From positions 15,238 through 79,237 of IMG/VR virus record IMGVR_UViG_3300046009_011911: a DNA stretch of 64,000 bases; one strand, 5' to 3'. The notes beneath the pieces are model-generated. The model saw nothing but the letters and a program-made list of their open reading frames with translations. It was not told the DNA's origin and did no database searches. Below, one piece after another: positions 56,233-64,000 of the stretch. Made by a program: the position numbers and the translations under genes. The DNA comes from a virus. Every line of letters begins with the position of its first letter. Positions within the stretch are counted from its first letter, which is position 1.

Positions 56233-56604
56233 ATGCTAGAAGAAGATGAAATTGTATTTTTGAATAAATTGATAGCAGACCAAAACGATCTAATTTCAGA
56301 TCATTATTTCCAACTTAGTTTGGCAGAAAAAGGCAATGCAATAAAGTATGTGTTAAGACAAACTCATTGCCAAATTACTTTCAAAAAGATTGACGGCAGC
56401 ATTCGTGTTATGCCTTGTACTCTACGTCCTGCCAGTTTGCCTGTACAGGTACAAGAAAGCGTAGATACCCAAGATGTGACATCTAAGGAATCCAAACCTC
56501 CCAAAGCTGAGAACCCTAATACTATCAGAGTGTATTGTTTGGATAAACAAGAATGGCGAAGTTTTAGGATTGAAAATGTCATTTCGGTAAAAGTGATAGA
56601 GTAA
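56233..56604 (+). CDS. WYL_2/SH3-like beta-barrel protein
   Basis: ITFKKIDGSIRVMPCTL...VYCLDKQEWRSFRIENV. Confidence 0.7.
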   Translation: MLEEDEIVFLNKLIADQNDLISDHYFQLSLAEKGNAIKYVLRQTHCQITFKKIDGSIRVMPCTLRPASLPVQVQESVDTQDVTSKESKPPKAENPNTIRVYCLDKQEWRSFRIENVISVKVIE

Positions 56605-58251: not shown

Positions 58252-59130
58252 ATGAAGAAAGTTATTATCGCAGCAGCAATTGGGGCATTTAGCACTATGG
58301 CCACTGCACAAGTTAGTTTGAGTGGTAAGATTAGTGTATGGCAAGATAGCACTAAAGTTGGTGCTAATCGAGAAAATTCAATGTGGCATGAACCCACAAA
58401 TAATGTTGCCATTGGCGTTCAAGAAAAACTAGGTAGCGGTCTAACTGCTAGAGCAACTGTGGAAACCAGTCTGCATGGAAATACTATCCATGGTGCTGAT
58501 ACTAGACTGGGCGATCGCCAATCCACTGTGGGTCTATTAAGCAGTGTTGGTAGTATTGATTTAGGTCGTAATGTTCACAGCCAATTTCTAGCAATTGCAA
58601 TGAATGACGCATTCAGCACCATTTATGGAAGTGTGGCAGGAGATGTTCATAACCTTCGTGGACTAAGATTTGGAGATGCTTCATTCGTTAATATTACTGC
58701 TGTTAAAGGCTTTAACGTTTCTTATGATCGCAGCCAAACTCCGGGTGCCGAAGCCACCGCAGCTAGTGTGGGTGGAAAATTTGGCCCAGTCAATGCTGTA
58801 GTTGCACGATACGAACAAACCAACGAAATTAGTACTGTGGCAGGTTTAAATGCTGGTTTTGGTTCTACAACTGTTTATTACAGTCACAGTGATAACAAAG
58901 GTACGATTACTAGCAAAGGTGACCTAGTAGGTGTTCGCCATCAGATGGGCGCATATGCTGCCAAGGCCAGCTACGGTCGTACTAACACTGATATTAAAGC
59001 ATACAACATTGGTTTAGACTATGCACTCAGCAAAAGAACTGAGGTGGGTGTAGCTTACCGAAATGTTGACCTTGTTGCAACTGCCAGCGATGTCAAACAA
59101 GTCGGTGTTGGACTAACCCATCGTTTTTAA
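58252..59130 (+). CDS. Gram-negative general porin (betaproteobacterial type)
   Basis: Signal peptide; EKLGSGL, RQSTVGL, YALSKRT, C-terminal GLTHRF. Confidence 0.88.
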   Translation: MKKVIIAAAIGAFSTMATAQVSLSGKISVWQDSTKVGANRENSMWHEPTNNVAIGVQEKLGSGLTARATVETSLHGNTIHGADTRLGDRQSTVGLLSSVGSIDLGRNVHSQFLAIAMNDAFSTIYGSVAGDVHNLRGLRFGDASFVNITAVKGFNVSYDRSQTPGAEATAASVGGKFGPVNAVVARYEQTNEISTVAGLNAGFGSTTVYYSHSDNKGTITSKGDLVGVRHQMGAYAAKASYGRTNTDIKAYNIGLDYALSKRTEVGVAYRNVDLVATASDVKQVGVGLTHRF

Positions 59131-59149
59131 TCTATTGACATTTGCTTTT

Positions 59150-59181
59150 AAAAAGCCTATACTTGCAGTATAGGTTTTTTT
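59150..59181 (+). terminator. Terminator overlapping a sigma70 -10
   Basis: aaaaagcctatac-ttgca-gtataggtttttt; TTGACA(59135)-17-TATACT. Confidence 0.7.
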
Positions 59182-59649
59182 ATGACTAAAGAAAATTCAG
59201 CAAAGGGTGTTCACAGTTTCGATGCAAACATAGGCGGACACCTAATTAGTTTTATAAACAGAAACACCAGTACATATCCCACTGAAGTAGGCGTAGGACC
59301 TTTTGACTTAGTACCAGTTCAAGATCAAAAAGATTTAATGATCAATGCTGCTAAATTAAATGCAAAACAAGAATACGATAGAATTATGGAATTGGTTGTA
59401 GTTTTGCAACGTCAAGCACAGAATATCATTGACAGACTTAATTTAACAGATCAGGTACGTAATGCAGAATATAGTTTTCGATTATATCCTGGTAAAATAT
59501 ATTGGTTATTGTTTGATCTAAAAATACAAAAGTATAGATTAAGCATATTAGGACCCGATGATTGGTCCACTGGTGCTCCGAAACATTACAACTACATAAA
59601 ACAGATACAGTGGTTAGGTGACAATACTTGGCAGGAGATAAAGACATGA
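59182..59649 (+). CDS. DUF2452-like protein
   Basis: YPTEVG...F...GKIYWL...LSILGPDDW...GDNTW. Confidence 0.55.
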   Translation: MTKENSAKGVHSFDANIGGHLISFINRNTSTYPTEVGVGPFDLVPVQDQKDLMINAAKLNAKQEYDRIMELVVVLQRQAQNIIDRLNLTDQVRNAEYSFRLYPGKIYWLLFDLKIQKYRLSILGPDDWSTGAPKHYNYIKQIQWLGDNTWQEIKT

Positions 59650-60122
59650 CAACAAACACAATTTGGCCCAATAACAGTACAACTGGCAACGTAAGTTTTG
59701 CAACTGGACAAAATTATTCATACAACATTAACAATTTACTAACTAGTTCTATTATAGATACTTCCAGTTTAACTTTTGGAAATATTACTAATGGAGCCTT
59801 TACTACTACTGCTTCTGCTTCCTCATACAGTATAGTAAAGGATTTCGGGACCACAGCAAAAGTTCAGTTAAATCACGATGGGATTAAAATGGATGAATCC
59901 TGCGATTTAGTTTTTGGCAACACCAGTCTTAAAGATTGCTTGACTAAAATCGAAAGCAGATTGGCTATTCTTAGACCCAACGAACGATTAGAATCGGAAT
60001 GGGAGGAACTTAAATCTCTGGGCGATCAATATCGTGCATTAGAAAAACAAATCAATGAAAAAATGAAAACGTGGAACATTCTTCAACGCAGAGACGAAGA
60101 TGATTGCGATAAAACCATATAA
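59646..60122 (+). CDS. Hypothetical protein with T/S/N-rich N-terminus and coiled-coil C-terminus
   Basis: SD AGGAG; IESRLAILRPN...LEKQI. Confidence 0.65.
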   Translation: MTTNTIWPNNSTTGNVSFATGQNYSYNINNLLTSSIIDTSSLTFGNITNGAFTTTASASSYSIVKDFGTTAKVQLNHDGIKMDESCDLVFGNTSLKDCLTKIESRLAILRPNERLESEWEELKSLGDQYRALEKQINEKMKTWNILQRRDEDDCDKTI

Positions 60123-60317
60123 CGACAAATATCAATTAATTTGGTTTTGCCATGTTGAAGATGCACAATCAGCCATAAAATGGTGTTACGACAACTGGGG
60201 CAATGATTGGGGTAGAGTGCACGTAGGCATACCTGATCGTGTGGGTTTTGCAGAAAACATTTTCTTGTTTCACAAACTCAGTCATGCTAATTGGTTCAAA
60301 TTAAAATTCGAAGAGAT

Positions 60318-60346
60318 TTGACAAATATTCCATTTCTAATTAAAAT
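60318..60346 (+). promoter_or_regulatory. Early promoter driving the LRW array (leaderless first gene)
   Basis: TTGACA(60318)-17-TAAAAT(60341); ATG at 60353. Confidence 0.75.
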
Positions 60347-60734
60347 ATTAGTATGGATACAATTATCAAAATTAAACAGAACAGCAAAATTTTAGACATC
60401 GTAGATTGGGCAGGTCGAAACTTTGGTTATGATCAATTTGAACTAAAAACTACTTACCCTGGTGATTATGATTTTGTCTTTAAAAAATCTAACCATGCAC
60501 TAATGTTCCGACTTAAGTGGTACAGTCAATGAACATTGTGATTGTTAAAGGACCAATCAGAAATTTCAAAGAACAAATAGCTTGGTGTAAAGAGAATTTC
60601 GGGCCCGGAATTGAAGTTGTGGGACCCACTCAAGCAGAATTGTATCGTTGGAGTTATGAAATAATAGGATTTGGTCTTAGACAAATATTTTTCAGTAATG
60701 ATTTAGATTATTCATTTTACGTTTTGAGATGGTC

Positions 60735-61337
60735 ATGATGAAACCAAAGAAAAAATATATTTTAGATGTGTTCGGTCACGAACCCTCTACTCTTAATGAA
60801 CTGGGTGATTGTGTTCGTGCGGTAATTGATCATGCAATTGGCAATAAAGGAAACAGATGCGTGGGACTTCAATGGGATCTAAGATTTACAGAAACCGTTA
60901 GTAATAGTCATGATGCCCCATTGTCTGGCCAAACTAATTTTGGAAGTCAAGAAGGTCGGCCTACTGGTTATCCTGGTTGGTATGGGCGAGTATGGGTAAG
61001 ATATGCTATTTACCCCAAATCTTTTGGTAGTGATCCTTTCCAGCGAACCCTAACCTATACTGGCACTGGCGGGTTTGGCAGTTACGGCGGGCCATGGGAA
61101 CGAATTGCTAAAACACATTATCAACGTGGAATGCTAAAACGGCAAAAACTGGACTACCCTGAACCGGCAATTTTTAGTTGGGATTATAGAATTTTTGCTG
61201 ATGATTGGCCTGTCCTTATGATGTGGTCGGCGTTGTCTAATAATGAAAACTGCACACATAGATATCATTGGGTAGATCCCGACGTTCATAAACAAGACCT
61301 TGAATTTATCAACGATCAAATTTATCAATTAGCATAA
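60735..61337 (+). CDS. Hypothetical protein inserted in the LRW array
   Basis: VSNSHDAP...GYPGWYGRVW...TGTGG; ATGA-coupled. Confidence 0.7.
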   Translation: MMKPKKKYILDVFGHEPSTLNELGDCVRAVIDHAIGNKGNRCVGLQWDLRFTETVSNSHDAPLSGQTNFGSQEGRPTGYPGWYGRVWVRYAIYPKSFGSDPFQRTLTYTGTGGFGSYGGPWERIAKTHYQRGMLKRQKLDYPEPAIFSWDYRIFADDWPVLMMWSALSNNENCTHRYHWVDPDVHKQDLEFINDQIYQLA

Positions 61338-62201
61338 AATGAGCAAGGCAGATTACTGTATTATACCTGTAGTCTACACAAGACAATCAGTGCAGCATCA
61401 TGAAGATATGCGTCAATGGTTAGTGGATAACATTGATGCCGAATGTTATGATGCAGAAGATTGGCGTGCAGTGGATAATAATTGGCGTCAACGTCGTATA
61501 TGGTTCTCACATGAGCAGGATGCAGTAATCTTTGCGTTGAGGTGGTCATGAAATTCCGTATGATTGAGTTAGGGTATCGCAGCACACCCGACTATCCCTA
61601 TGACTACAGAATCGAATTGCTGGAATACAGTCTTCTCGATCGTTACCAGCTGGCAGATTGGCTAAAAGATCTGGCTATCCCGCACACAACAGCCGGCTGG
61701 AACACTGGGTCGGTGTTTTATCTGCGTCGAGAACATGCCACAATGTTTGCGTTAAAATGGGCATAAAGTCTGTCACAGTTAGAGATTTACCATTCACCAT
61801 CATGGTCCATAAAGATCGCCATAGGGATGCAGAGGCTTGGTGTAGAGCAGAGTGGGGAGAGCGTTGGTCAGTGACTGAAAACAAACAGGGCACTTGGTGT
61901 TGTTTTTGGGGTGGCTTTAGAGAAGCTAAAGGAAACTATCTTTATCATTTTGCCCGTGAACAGGATGCTATAGTTTTTGCGTTGAGATGGGCATAATGGC
62001 TGAAAAAGTTTTTATACAAAGAGATTCTTTCCAATTAGTCAGCGACGAGCGTGATATCATGCTACCTTTGAGTCTGACCAATGAAGTTCAAGAATGGTGT
62101 GTTAGCAATAATGTTATAGCAGAACAGAAAAGTGCATTTGGGGTTACACTTTGGCGTGTTAAGGATCATGAACACAGAATATGGTTTGCGTTGAGGTGGG
62201 T

Positions 62202-62558
62202 ATGAGAACTAGCGTTTGGTATCGCACTGAATTACAAAATCCCGATCATTCGGGTTATTATTTTGCTTACCGTGGTTGGGGTATGGGCGGTAAAGCCGAT
62301 GGCGACTGTGATTACGGTTATCTTTATTACGACAGAAAACGAGATCGCTGGAGAGAATACGAAAGGGATAATAAATTTGATTCAATCATAGTTTATTACT
62401 GGACTGACGCTGATCCACATCAATGGGTAGAAGATGATCCTCCCAGTATTAAAATTCGAGAAATGAAAGAAAAATATAATCCAACACTCGAAGATGCTTG
62501 GCGGCGAGTAAAAGAAGCTATCGATCAATACGAAATGATTAAAAATTTAGTGCAATAA
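62202..62558 (+). CDS. Hypothetical protein inserted in the LRW array
   Basis: ATGA-coupled; not LRW-terminated. Confidence 0.65.
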   Translation: MRTSVWYRTELQNPDHSGYYFAYRGWGMGGKADGDCDYGYLYYDRKRDRWREYERDNKFDSIIVYYWTDADPHQWVEDDPPSIKIREMKEKYNPTLEDAWRRVKEAIDQYEMIKNLVQ

Positions 62559-63820
62559 TGGTCTATTCTTGGCAATATAATGGTCGAGCACCATTTAACG
62601 ACATTTGGGATTGGTGTATACAAAACATGAAAGGTCGTTTCTATACCAACAACTTTGAAACTATTCATTTTACAAACGAAAAAGAATATATCCTATTTTT
62701 GTTGAGGTGGGCATGAAAGTTTTTGATCTCGGAGAAAAGGCAATTTATCAATTCAGAGTCAACATTCCTTTTGGAGATAAAAGTCTCCTTTCGGATGTTC
62801 AAGACTGGATAGTTGCTAACAAAATTAGCGGTGCTGTTTTACCAGGAGTAGCATTTTTTTCGAAACATGAAGATGTAATTTTGTTTATGTTGAGGTGGTC
62901 ATGAATACTCTAAGCATTAATTTTAATCAAACCAGTTTCGAACTATTGATATCGTGGTTTGATTCCATGGGATATCCTTGTCGAGAACGTGGGTTACATA
63001 CCGCACAAGGCAAACATTGGTATATCGGTATTCTATATGATCATTTTTCCGTTAACATTTATGATGACAAATTATATACATTAGCAGGATTGAGGTGGTC
63101 GTGAGAAAATTAAAAAAAGAATTATGGCCTTATCGAGTCACAGTAAACAGCGATTGGAAACACGATATTAATCCTATAGAAGAATGGTTAGGAGCGAATA
63201 TAGGAGGTTGGAAAGATCGATGGAATGTTGTTTATAATTATAATTCTACTGACTTTTATTTCATAAATTCAGCAGATGCGGTTATGTTTTCGTTGAGATG
63301 GGCATGACAGTAACTTATAAACCATTAAAAATGTTTCCCGAAATACTAACTCCTGTATTACATAAGGTTATGTATGATGTTAGTGCCGAAGACTATCAAT
63401 TGAATACGTGGTTAAAGGAAAATTGTAAAGGCTATTACTATCATAGTCCCGGATGGATGAAGGAAAAGTTTATACAATTCGAGGATGATCATGATGCGTT
63501 GTTGTTCTCATTAAGGTGGACCTAATGATTTCTGCCAAAGATTGTATTCATGATTTCATCGAGGCTTGGAAACAATGGGATAAGGTTAAGGCTGAGGATC
63601 GACATCCAGAAAGCGAAAGTGTTCGTCCAGTCTGGAATATTCGATTTCAAGATGCTGGATATTACCGTGTAGAATCTTCAAGAGACAGTGTGACTAACAG
63701 TTGGCAAGAAATGCATAGGTGGTGCGAAGAACATGTTGGTACCAGACATTATGCTTGGACAGGTAGCACATTTTGGTTTGATTCTGACAGAGCAGCAATG
63801 TTGTTTTCGTTGAGGTGGTC

Positions 63821-64000
63821 ATGAATCTTAAAGAACGAATCGTAGATTGGTATCTTACTCGCAAAACAGGTAAAACAAAAGCGGAGCGTGAGTATTTGGC
63901 ATGGTACGAACAAACGATCAACGTCCGAGCTACACGTATTATAGACATGTTTGCAAATTTTCGATATGTTATTGTGGTCGATCCTGAAAAGTTTTTTTCT
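63821..64000 (+). CDS. Hypothetical protein, 3'-truncated by the window edge
   Basis: ATGA-coupled; MNLKERIVDWYL... open to the end. Confidence 0.6.
   Translation, partial: MNLKERIVDWYLTRKTGKTKAEREYLAWYEQTINVRATRIIDMFANFRYVIVVDPEKFFS

What the first reader, a model, noticed from the sequence alone, without database searches (positions are those of the whole stretch)
60100..64000. LRW array: ~13 divergent mini-paralogues whose conserved last codons are the ribosome-binding site and start of the next gene
Seen: 52-99 aa proteins sharing only a W(C/L)xxN core and a C-terminal F-x-L-[RK]-W-[SATV]-stop. The DNA junction is strongly fixed: TTGAGRTGG at 60724, 61537, 61982, 62191, 62702, 62890, 63090, 63293, 63810, and TTAAGGTGG at 63511. 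Each is followed by one codon and an ATGA/GTGA/TAATG overlap. Leu is TTG in 9 of 10 and Arg is AGG in 7 of 10, giving GAGGTG (anti-SD complement) a few nt before the next start. Two members (60353, 62558) are missing from the ORF track, and unrelated genes (60735, 62202) are plugged in at the same junction. Inference: a self-coupling cassette array. Any unit inserted by recombination at this ~16-bp junction is automatically translated, allowing accordion-like diversification of one small fold, for example anti-defence or host-protein-binding variants.
Basis: partly seen in the sequence, partly recalled or inferred. Interest (0 to 1): 0.8.

Follow-up and report, generated by a model that had tools for sequence, protein, structure and literature searches.

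The report
Self-coupling small-gene cassette array in phage
A fragment of a very large lake-water phage carries a row of 13 small related genes whose last codons (Leu-Arg-Trp) are spelled to act as the ribosome-binding site of the next gene, and the same short junction is where related phages have swapped, lost or gained whole genes.

Summary
TTRAGRTGG occurs 10 times in the window (2.6 expected). All ten lie at gene ends between 60724 and 63818, and there are none elsewhere in the 79-kb contig.

A profile built only from outside sequences recognises 12 of the 13 genes as one family (m10 is marginal). The family has no Pfam, PHROGs, NCBIfam, PADLOC or PDB match. It has more than 1,300 clusters at 50% identity in metagenomes and forms arrays of up to about 19 genes in many large phage contigs.

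The codon choice is selected.
- AGG is 4-9% of Arg codons elsewhere but 7 of 10 at the junction.
- In 251 independent family ends from other phages, AGG is 76% when the next gene starts within 8 nt and 23% when it does not (p = 1e-8).

Close relatives carry the same cassettes with different neighbours, and parentage switches inside the junction motif. Independent lake metagenomes show 13 of 16 divergence points at junctions.

The "accordion" part is not supported: neighbours in an array are no more alike than other members (about 19% identity), so the arrays are assortments of old cassettes. Protein function remains unknown.

This is a new variant of known principles: translational coupling plus linker-mediated modular shuffling. 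The scan holds no earlier report of this family on other DNA.

The parts
60318..60346 (+). sigma-70-like promoter candidate (TTGACA-17-TAAAAT, 11 of 12), ending 6 nt before the ATG of m2. Possible start of the array's transcript.
   Evidence: This is a consensus match only; the region's promoter count equals that of shuffles.
60100..60321 (+). m1, a divergent family member (73 aa). Its tail is F-K-L-K-F-E-E-I, it has no coupling junction, and a 31-nt gap follows.
   Evidence: outside-only profile E 1e-9
60353..60532 (+). m2, family member (59 aa). Its tail is F-R-L-K-W-Y-S-Q and it overlaps m3 by ATGA.
   Evidence: E 1.6e-10
60529..60738 (+). m3, family member (69 aa), ending in L-R-W-S
   Evidence: E 2e-13
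60724..60738 (+). junction TTGAGATGG-TCA-TGA (m3 to X200)
60735..61337 (+). X200, an unrelated 200-aa gene that starts at an LRW junction. It has no LRW tail and no known family.
   Evidence: 39% relative in another context
61339..61551 (+). m4, family member (70 aa)
   Evidence: E 2e-20
61537..61551 (+). junction TTGAGGTGG-TCA-TGA (m4 to m5)
   Evidence: duplex with the anti-SD -14.1 kcal/mol; loose ends of runs X6 and X8 at 61519 and 61551
61548..61766 (+). m5, family member (72 aa). Its tail is A-L-K-W-A, spelled TTA AAA, so it gives no SD.
   Evidence: orthologues at 63-85% have different neighbours in each relative
61757..61996 (+). m6, family member (79 aa if it starts at the ATG at 61757; the start is uncertain and has no SD)
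61982..61996 (+). junction TTGAGATGG-GCA-TAA, with the next ATG overlapping as TAATG (m6 to m7)
61996..62205 (+). m7, family member (69 aa from the TAATG start)
   Evidence: E 5e-7
62191..62205 (+). junction TTGAGGTGG-GTA-TGA (m7 to X118)
62202..62558 (+). X118, an unrelated 118-aa gene that starts at an LRW junction and has no LRW tail. It stays next to m8 in relative L098.
62558..62716 (+). m8, family member (52 aa)
   Evidence: E 1e-12
62702..62716 (+). junction TTGAGGTGG-GCA-TGA (m8 to m9)
   Evidence: loose end of X8 at 62717
62713..62904 (+). m9, family member (63 aa)
   Evidence: E 2e-7
62890..62904 (+). junction TTGAGGTGG-TCA-TGA (m9 to m10)
   Evidence: loose ends at 62872, 62884 and 62907
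62901..63104 (+). m10, the most divergent member (67 aa). By sequence it matches only through its tail.
   Evidence: E 0.05; AF2 model pLDDT 91.8 with a C-terminal helix; six BFVD hits shared with m12
63090..63104 (+). junction TTGAGGTGG-TCG-TGA (m10 to m11, GTG start)
63101..63307 (+). m11, family member (68 aa)
   Evidence: E 7e-17; 96% orthologue lies directly after m5 in L102
63293..63307 (+). junction TTGAGATGG-GCA-TGA (m11 to m12)
   Evidence: the same loose end at 63307 in X6 and X7
63304..63525 (+). m12, family member (73 aa), the one modelled
   Evidence: AF2 pLDDT 91.2; orthologues at 81-94% in L101-L103
63511..63525 (+). junction TTAAGGTGG-ACC-TAA, with the next ATG overlapping as TAATG (m12 to m13)
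63525..63824 (+). m13, family member (99 aa, with an N-terminal extension). It is absent between m12 and the next gene in relative L101.
   Evidence: E 2e-18
63810..63824 (+). junction TTGAGGTGG-TCA-TGA (m13 to the next gene)
63821..64000 (+). gene cut by the contig end. Its 97%-identical orthologue in L101 is 131 aa and also ends in A-L-R-W-S with a GTGA overlap.

Best explanation
The region is one co-oriented, probably polycistronic, array. It holds at least 13 anciently diverged members of an uncurated family of small phage proteins, which share a beta/alpha core ending in a C-terminal helix [DE]-D-A-x-x-F-x-L-R-W.

The gene end has a fixed architecture: Leu(TTG)-Arg(AGG)-Trp(TGG)-one codon NNA-TGA.

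1. Translation. GAGGTG(G) inside the Leu-Arg-Trp codons pairs with the 16S anti-Shine-Dalgarno sequence 5 nt before the next ATG, and that ATG overlaps the stop as ATGA. Each gene therefore supplies the ribosome-binding site and the termination-reinitiation site of whatever gene follows it. The LRW residues themselves are kept by the protein. The ribosome-binding site is obtained by synonymous codon choice, and the single variable last residue mainly supplies the A of ATG and the spacing.
2. Recombination. The same conserved 20-33 nt is the only repeated DNA in the array. It serves as the patch of short homology at which related phages exchange, lose or gain whole cassettes. Foreign genes without the tail travel with the family member downstream of them.

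Shown here by comparative sequence evidence: codon selection conditional on a downstream start, variable cassette order, and switches of parentage inside the motif.

Inferred, not shown: actual coupling of translation, the recombination enzyme, and the proteins' role. My guess for the role is diversified early host-interaction proteins, held with low confidence.
For: The motif is confined to the array.

Codon choice in the window:
- Across the genome TTG is 22% of Leu codons and AGG 9% of Arg codons. Inside the members they are 19% and 4%. At the ends TTG is 9 of 13 (p 4e-4) and AGG 7 of 10 (p 6e-6).
- The SD:anti-SD duplex averages -10.2 kcal/mol, against -4.9 for a synonymous-codon null. Six of the ten junctions fall in the top 3% of that null.

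Codon choice across the family:
- A codon-neutral pattern search of IMG/VR plus a profile scan found 428 members in 86 loci.
- Among 299 non-redundant ends, TTG is 60% of Leu codons and AGG 69% of Arg codons. Exactly one residue follows Trp in 87%, and 62% have an ATGA overlap.
- AGG is 167 of 220 when an ORF starts within 8 nt, against 7 of 31 otherwise (odds ratio 10.8, p 1.2e-8). Internal AGG is 8%.
- Uncoupled ends keep LRW with CGN codons, and their next genes carry a separate AAGGAG.

Cassette exchange:
- The m5 and m12 orthologues (63-94% identity) have different neighbours in L095-L098 and L101-L104.
- L101 follows m12 up to the Phe-Ser codons and is then identical to the window's m13-to-next-gene junction. 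L102 does the same between m5 and the m10-to-m11 junction.
- 41% of 92 homology breakpoints lie within 15 nt of a member's stop codon, against 9% for random positions.
- In four independent lake metagenomes, 13 of 16 in-array divergence points lie between -35 and +20 nt of a member's stop. About 19% would be expected.
- The junction is the only direct-repeat family in the array.

Fold: the models are confident, with pLDDT 91 and 92, and the motif forms the C-terminal helix.
Against: - There is no expression or ribosome data. No RNA run was listed and the host is unknown.
- Three of the ten junctions use AGA, which is weaker (-4.6 to -7.4 kcal/mol). m5 uses Lys (AAA) and gives no SD. One lineage (L015/L089) uses CGN with AAATGA. 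The SD is therefore common but not obligatory.
- Breakpoints at gene ends would also be seen if random illegitimate recombinants were filtered by selection for intact genes.
- The relatives are short metagenome contigs, so polarity (insertion or deletion) and linkage cannot be set.
- The exact homology at the junctions is short (15-21 nt).
- Nothing shows what the proteins do.
Confidence: 0.7

Rival explanations
1. The junction is conserved only for the protein's C-terminal helix and for the ribosome-binding site. Cassette differences among relatives arise from random illegitimate recombination or replication slippage. They are seen at gene ends only because other recombinants are lost by selection.
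For: Mosaic joints at gene boundaries are general in phages (established knowledge). The exact homology is only 15-21 nt. 59% of array breakpoints lie more than 15 nt from a member's stop.
Against: In two resolved cases, parentage switches inside the motif, with the downstream parent's spelling of the last codons. Loose ends in four lake runs cluster at the first or last base of the conserved tail. Interloper X118, which lacks the tail, stays linked to m8.
Confidence: 0.2
2. Translational coupling exists to make equimolar amounts of subunits that assemble into a hetero-oligomer. The array would then be a structural operon rather than a set of independent cassettes.
For: Coupling is typical of stoichiometric complexes (established knowledge). 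Two-copy fused proteins exist in the databases: P0002, P0005, P0008 and P0029.
Against: Neighbour pairs are not conserved among close relatives. Array size ranges from 1 to about 19. Unrelated genes sit in the chain.
Confidence: 0.07
3. The shared TTG-AGG-TGG spelling is inherited from a common ancestor or homogenised by gene conversion. It has no role in translation.
For: In the window, the codon before Leu is the rare GCG in 4 of 4 Ala and TCG in 2 of 3 Ser. This is nucleotide conservation beyond the SD.
Against: Members are about 20% identical, so synonymous sites are saturated. AGG depends on a nearby downstream start. The GCG preference is not family-wide: GCA 76 against GCG 28.
Confidence: 0.03
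4. The variant cassette orders are chimeric metagenome assemblies joined at the repeat.
For: The relatives L101-L104 are contigs of 1-2 kb. The window's own contig ends inside the array.
Against: The junction copies share no exact stretch as long as the usual assembly words. The Logan contigs are built from 31-letter words, and the repeats are at most about 21 nt and imperfect. The same variant join (63307) is seen in two separate samples. Long IMG/VR contigs (L097, L098) also differ in order.
Confidence: 0.03

Closest known systems
Translational coupling of overlapping genes (ATGA overlap with a Shine-Dalgarno site inside the upstream gene; termination-reinitiation)
   Same: There is a 4-nt ATGA or 1-nt TAATG overlap. 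GAGGTG lies 5 nt before the start, inside the upstream coding sequence. The synonymous codons are chosen for it.
   Different: Here the ribosome-binding site is built into a conserved protein motif of a whole paralogue family. Every member carries the same ready-made site for whichever gene lands behind it.
[quoted passage not shown] 2010, PMC2839356; PMC4122927)
   Same: Short conserved expression signals are repeated between small non-essential genes of a plastic region, and differences between related phages map to them.
   Different: PeSLs are intergenic promoter-plus-terminator units. The LRW junction is coding sequence plus a translation signal, with no promoter or terminator match. Mini-circles were not tested.
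Integron gene-cassette arrays
   Same: Promoterless cassettes in one orientation are expressed from upstream, and cassette content varies.
   Different: No attC-like inverted repeats were found. No tyrosine recombinase was found in the 79-kb fragment, which is only about 23% of the genome. The junction lies inside the genes.
Linker or boundary sequences in the modular theory of lambdoid phage evolution (Susskind and Botstein; from memory, not checked here)
   Same: Short conserved sequences at module borders are proposed as crossover points.
   Different: The unit here is a single small gene of about 200 bp, and the linker is the end of a protein-coding domain.

Membership tests
Translationally coupled overlapping gene pairs | Stop of the upstream gene overlaps or abuts the start of the downstream gene | tested here: met
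   In the window, 10 of 10 LRW junctions are ATGA, GTGA or TAATG. In other phages, 253 of 299 ends are.
Translationally coupled overlapping gene pairs | Shine-Dalgarno complement at working distance inside the upstream gene | tested here: met
   GAGG lies 5 nt before the ATG. The duplex averages -10.2 kcal/mol against -4.9 for the synonymous null. AGG use depends on a nearby start.
Translationally coupled overlapping gene pairs | Downstream translation depends on upstream translation | not testable with these tools
   This needs reporter or ribosome-profiling experiments.
PeSL-type regulatory cassettes | Repeated conserved element flanks small genes, and differences between related phages map to it | tested here: met
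PeSL-type regulatory cassettes | The element consists of a sigma-70-like early promoter and a terminator stem-loop | tested here: not met
   No promoter or terminator pattern lies at the junctions, and there are no inverted repeats. The element is coding.
Integron cassette array | attC-type imperfect inverted repeats at cassette ends | tested here: not met
   The array has only one 12-nt AT palindrome.
Integron cassette array | Adjacent tyrosine-recombinase integrase | tested here: inconclusive
   PF00589 has no match in the 79-kb record, but the record is only about 23% of the genome.
The small-protein family itself (no curated name) | Match to a profile built without the window's sequences | tested here: met
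   12 of 13 members match at E from 5e-7 to 2e-20; m10 is at 0.05.
The small-protein family itself (no curated name) | Common fold | tested here: inconclusive
   m12 and m10 both give confident beta/alpha models with the motif as the C-terminal helix, and they share six BFVD hits. The strand counts differ, the family alignment guided both models, and no direct superposition could be run.
KH / ACT / RRM-like alpha-beta sandwiches | Structural match clearly above background | tested here: inconclusive
   The best VIA-align score is Z 5.0, shared by many unrelated folds. Foldseek against PDB gives E 0.3 or worse.

The most novel reading that the evidence does not exclude
The LRW tail is a dedicated, self-propagating cassette linker. 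It is a piece of coding sequence that is at once a structural helix, a ribosome-binding site and a recombination site. It gives very large freshwater phages an integron-like platform, without an integrase, for collecting and expressing a changing repertoire of small host-targeting or anti-defence proteins, including unrelated captured genes.
Probability: 0.3. Interest if true: 0.8.

Novelty: new variant of a known kind. Interest (0 to 1): 0.6.

Why it matters
- It defines a large protein family that no curated library covers. The family has more than 1,300 clusters at 50% identity, and one ESM Atlas cluster has 6,418 members. It makes up a visible part of the unknown-gene content of large environmental phages.
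- It gives a concrete sequence-level mechanism for how plastic regions of phage genomes gain, lose and express small genes. One 20-30-nt stretch of coding sequence is constrained at once by protein structure, translation initiation and recombination.
- The conditional codon bias is a clean natural example of selection on synonymous sites.
- For annotation, gene callers miss or mis-start these genes, for example at the in-frame GTG inside AGGTGG.
- For engineering, the junction is a compact natural part for chaining genes.

Tried and rejected
- Library scans. Pfam, PHROGs, NCBIfam and PADLOC scans of the members, the database homologues and the two interlopers gave nothing above threshold. There was a sub-threshold DUF3110 match only.
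- Solved structures by sequence. A profile search of PDB sequences gave only chance-level Skp1 rows.
- Fold searches. Foldseek against PDB gave nothing. VIA-align wide gave Z of 5 or less, with KH, ACT and secretin-N-like rows tied. No fold or function was assigned.
- Cultured phages. blastn and tblastn against cultured phages found no match for the array or for m12. Agrobacterium phage Atu_ph07 has five weak, dispersed profile matches (two fall in overlapping loci, so the ORF listing repeats them) whose tails end in LR[FY] or are more diverged, without the coupling junction.
- Homodimer of m12. No verdict.
- Expression. No RNA holder was listed among the sequencing runs.
- Literature. A full-text search for the motif returned only unrelated papers.
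- SD-poor host test. I tried to show that the CGN-using lineage (L015/L089) has a host that makes little use of SD sites. There were too few genes, so it is inconclusive.
- Earlier scan findings. A look-up by sequence found nothing.
- Rejected: tandem-duplication 'accordion'.
- Rejected: the in-frame GTG inside AGGTGG as the true start. It has no SD upstream, whereas the ATG 6 nt downstream has one.
Full report
**What the DNA is.** The window is bases 15238-79237 of a single 79,237-bp contig and ends at the contig's end. It is an IMG/VR virus record with no end repeats and an estimated completeness of 23%, so the phage is about 340 kb. GC content is about 37%. The window encodes a DnaE-type polymerase whose best match is a 484-kb uncultured phage at 37% identity. 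It also encodes a ligase, a radical-SAM protein, a metallophosphoesterase and a Gram-negative porin. Near-identical DNA is held by lake-water metagenomes.

**The observation.** TTRAGRTGG occurs 10 times in the window, against 2.6 expected. All ten are on the + strand between 60724 and 63818, and the motif is absent from the rest of the contig. Reading the sequence gives 13 co-oriented ORFs of 52-99 aa. Ten of them end Leu-Arg-Trp plus one residue plus stop. The next start overlaps the stop as ATGA six times, as TAATG twice, and as GTGA once, and at the tenth junction ATGA opens the gene that is cut by the contig end. Three members differ:
- m1 ends F-K-L-K-F-E-E-I.
- m2 ends L-K-W-Y-S-Q.
- m5 ends L-K-W-A, spelled TTA AAA.

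Two unrelated genes (200 and 118 aa) start at LRW junctions. The in-frame GTG that the ORF lister picks inside AGGTGG is unlikely to be the start, because the ATG 6 nt downstream has GAGG 5 nt before it.

**One family, not in any library.** None of the members matches Pfam, PHROGs, NCBIfam or PADLOC. A profile of the 13 members searched against 1.84 billion cluster representatives found 1,323 proteins at E of 1e-3 or better. Nearly all are 55-110 aa and match through to their last residue, with tails such as FALRWS and FALRWA. A few are two-copy fusions, and these hits also lack curated families. A profile built only from 131 of those outside proteins recovers 12 of the 13 window genes at E from 5e-7 to 2e-20; m10 is marginal at 0.05. 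The ESM Atlas places m12 beside viral 'hypothetical protein' clusters, one of which has 6,418 members.

**Fold.** AlphaFold2 with the family alignment gives a confident model of m12 (pLDDT 91.2). Its order of elements is three strands, a helix carrying the invariant Trp, two strands, and a C-terminal helix made of D-A-x-x-F-x-L-R-W. The divergent m10 also gives pLDDT 91.8, with a strand, a helix, four strands and the same terminal helix. The two models share six uncharacterised viral proteins in their top-50 BFVD lists. Neither Foldseek nor VIA-align finds a solved structure above background: the best Z is 5.0, with KH, ACT and other two-layer sandwiches tied. I therefore assign no function from the fold.

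**The codons are chosen to make a ribosome-binding site.**
- In a crude gene set of the contig, TTG is 22% of Leu codons and AGG 9% of Arg codons. Inside the 13 members they are 19% and 4%. At the tail, TTG is 9 of 13 (p 4e-4), AGG is 7 of 10 (p 6e-6), and all ten Arg are AGR.
- The phage does use SD sites. A core SD motif lies upstream of 33% of crude starts against 8% of random positions.
- The predicted duplex with the 16S 3' tail averages -10.2 kcal/mol at the ten junction starts. A null that redraws the Leu and Arg codons from genome usage gives -4.9. Six junctions are in the strongest 3% of that null, and only 1% of random 20-mers reach -10.
- Starts that do not follow an AGR tail (m2, m4, m6, m8) have essentially no SD.

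**The decisive comparison comes from other phages.** A pattern that back-translates [DE]-D-A-x-x-F-A-L-R-W without fixing any synonymous position found 94 IMG/VR loci. A profile scan of these found 428 members in 86 loci, in runs of up to about 19 genes. Among 299 non-redundant ends:
- TTG is 60% of Leu codons and AGG 69% of Arg codons.
- Exactly one residue follows Trp in 87%.
- The stop is overlapped by ATGA in 62%.

Internal codons of the same genes are 8% AGG and 22% TTG. AGG is used in 167 of 220 ends where an ORF of at least 40 aa starts within 8 nt of the Trp codon. It is used in only 7 of 31 ends where the next start is farther away or absent (odds ratio 10.8, p 1.2e-8). Those uncoupled ends keep Leu-Arg-Trp with CGN codons, and their downstream genes carry a separate AAGGAG. 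So LRW is held by the protein and the spelling is held by translation of the next gene. The single last residue is almost any amino acid with a codon ending in A. That fits a role as the supplier of the A of ATG and of the spacing.

**Cassettes move at the junction.** Relatives of single members were fetched from IMG/VR and from metagenomes. The order in the window is m4 m5 m6 m7 X118 m8 m9 m10 m11 m12 m13, then the cut gene. In the relatives:
- L098: X118 m8 m12 m7 m5 m6 m13
- L095: m5 m11 m8
- L097: m8 m5, then an m3-like member
- L102: m5 (85%), m11 (96%), m12 (93%)
- L101: m12 (90%), then directly the orthologue of the cut gene (97%), with no m13
- L103: m12 m13 m6
- L104: m6 m11 m12

At nucleotide level, L101 matches the window's m12 up to the Phe-Ser codons. 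It is then identical over 23 nt to the window's junction between m13 and the next gene, not to the end of m12. L102 matches m5 up to TTTGC and then carries an R-W-S tail followed by m11. Across all fetched loci, 38 of 92 non-redundant homology breakpoints inside arrays lie within 15 nt of a member's stop, against 9% of random array positions.

I also laid contigs of four independent lake-water runs on 59000-64000. They show 16 places inside the array where a contig continues with unlike sequence, and 13 of these lie between 35 nt before and 20 nt after a member's stop. Such windows cover about 19% of the array. The same variant continuation after 63307 occurs in two separate samples. The junction is the only direct-repeat family in the array, with a core of 18-22 nt and weaker similarity over about 50 nt. 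There are no attC-like inverted repeats, no promoter or terminator pattern at the junctions, and no tyrosine recombinase in the fragment. X118 lacks the tail and remains next to m8 in L098. This is what one expects if only tails can serve as cassette borders.

**What is not supported.** Adjacent members of an array are 19% identical (median) and non-adjacent ones 18%. Only one of 1,864 within-array pairs exceeds 60%, while orthologues between phages reach 60-96%. The arrays are therefore assortments of old subfamilies exchanged among phages, not recent local amplifications. The rare GCG and TCG codons before Leu in the window are not a family-wide feature and remain a local peculiarity. One lineage (L015/L089) ends in L-R-W-K with CGN and AAATGA, so the SD is not universal.

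**Limits.** There is no expression evidence, no host and no functional clue. The relatives are mostly short metagenome contigs. Selection for intact genes would also place surviving breakpoints at gene ends. For these reasons I hold the recombination-linker part with less confidence (about 0.65) than the ribosome-binding-site part (about 0.85).

**Comparison with what is known.** Translational coupling through ATGA overlaps with an internal SD is textbook. What differs here is that the SD is embedded in a family-wide protein motif. The closest evolutionary analogue is the PeSL cassette of T4-type phages, where repeated promoter-terminator units mediate modular shuffling (PMC2839356). The LRW junction shares the behaviour but fails PeSL's defining composition. 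It is not an integron. I did not test that note, but it suggests the genome uses more than one kind of cassette border.

**Verdict.** It is a new variant of known principles, attached to a large unnamed protein family.

Noticed in passing
window 58252-59130 (+): A phage-borne Gram-negative porin gene (PF13609 Porin_4, E 8e-22, 292 aa) lies just upstream of the array.
   Followed up: no
window 60318-60353 (+): A TTGACA-17-TAAAAT match (11 of 12) ends 6 nt before the ATG of m2, and m2 has no SD. The first gene of the operon may be translated from a leaderless or near-leaderless mRNA.
   Followed up: partly
window 60353, 61339, 61757, 62558: Starts that do not follow an AGR-spelled LRW tail (m2, m4, m6, m8) have no detectable SD (duplex +0.7 to -1.7 kcal/mol). 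m4 and m8 follow the two interlopers with TAAAATG and TAATG.
   Followed up: partly
window 64000 (contig end): The contig breaks inside the array. Together with the co-existing variants in the lake samples, this suggests the assembly stopped at a hypervariable region, so the array is probably longer than 13 members.
   Followed up: partly
L101:233-625 and L101:628-996: Two larger proteins (131 and 123 aa) end in ALRWS and ALKWS and are coupled in the same way, but they do not match the family profile. Either the domain is very diverged there or the tail sits on other N-terminal parts.
   Followed up: no
L089 and L015 (IMG/VR 3300022555_000003 and relatives): A lineage at 33% GC has ends spelled TTG CGN TGG AAA TGA, with no SD complement despite the ATGA overlap. 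This is a possible natural control for hosts or genes that do not rely on SD.
   Followed up: partly
P0002, P0005, P0008, P0029, P0032; P0001 (1,882 aa, 10 matched stretches): The databases hold two-copy fusions of the domain, and one very long protein has ten matched stretches. These may be read-through of lost stops or true repeats.
   Followed up: no
window 59182-59649 and 56233-56604: A DUF2452 protein and a WYL_2 (Sm-like SH3) protein lie upstream. DUF2452 and the metallophosphoesterase also neighbour an LRW array in L098, but on the other side of it.
   Followed up: no
window 61535-61545, 61750-61760, 61980-61990, 62189-62199: Four neighbouring members (m4-m7) all spell Phe-Ala as TTT GCG, and GCG is only 6% of Ala codons. 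This local nucleotide identity goes beyond what the SD needs, and might be gene conversion or recent exchange of tails.
   Followed up: partly
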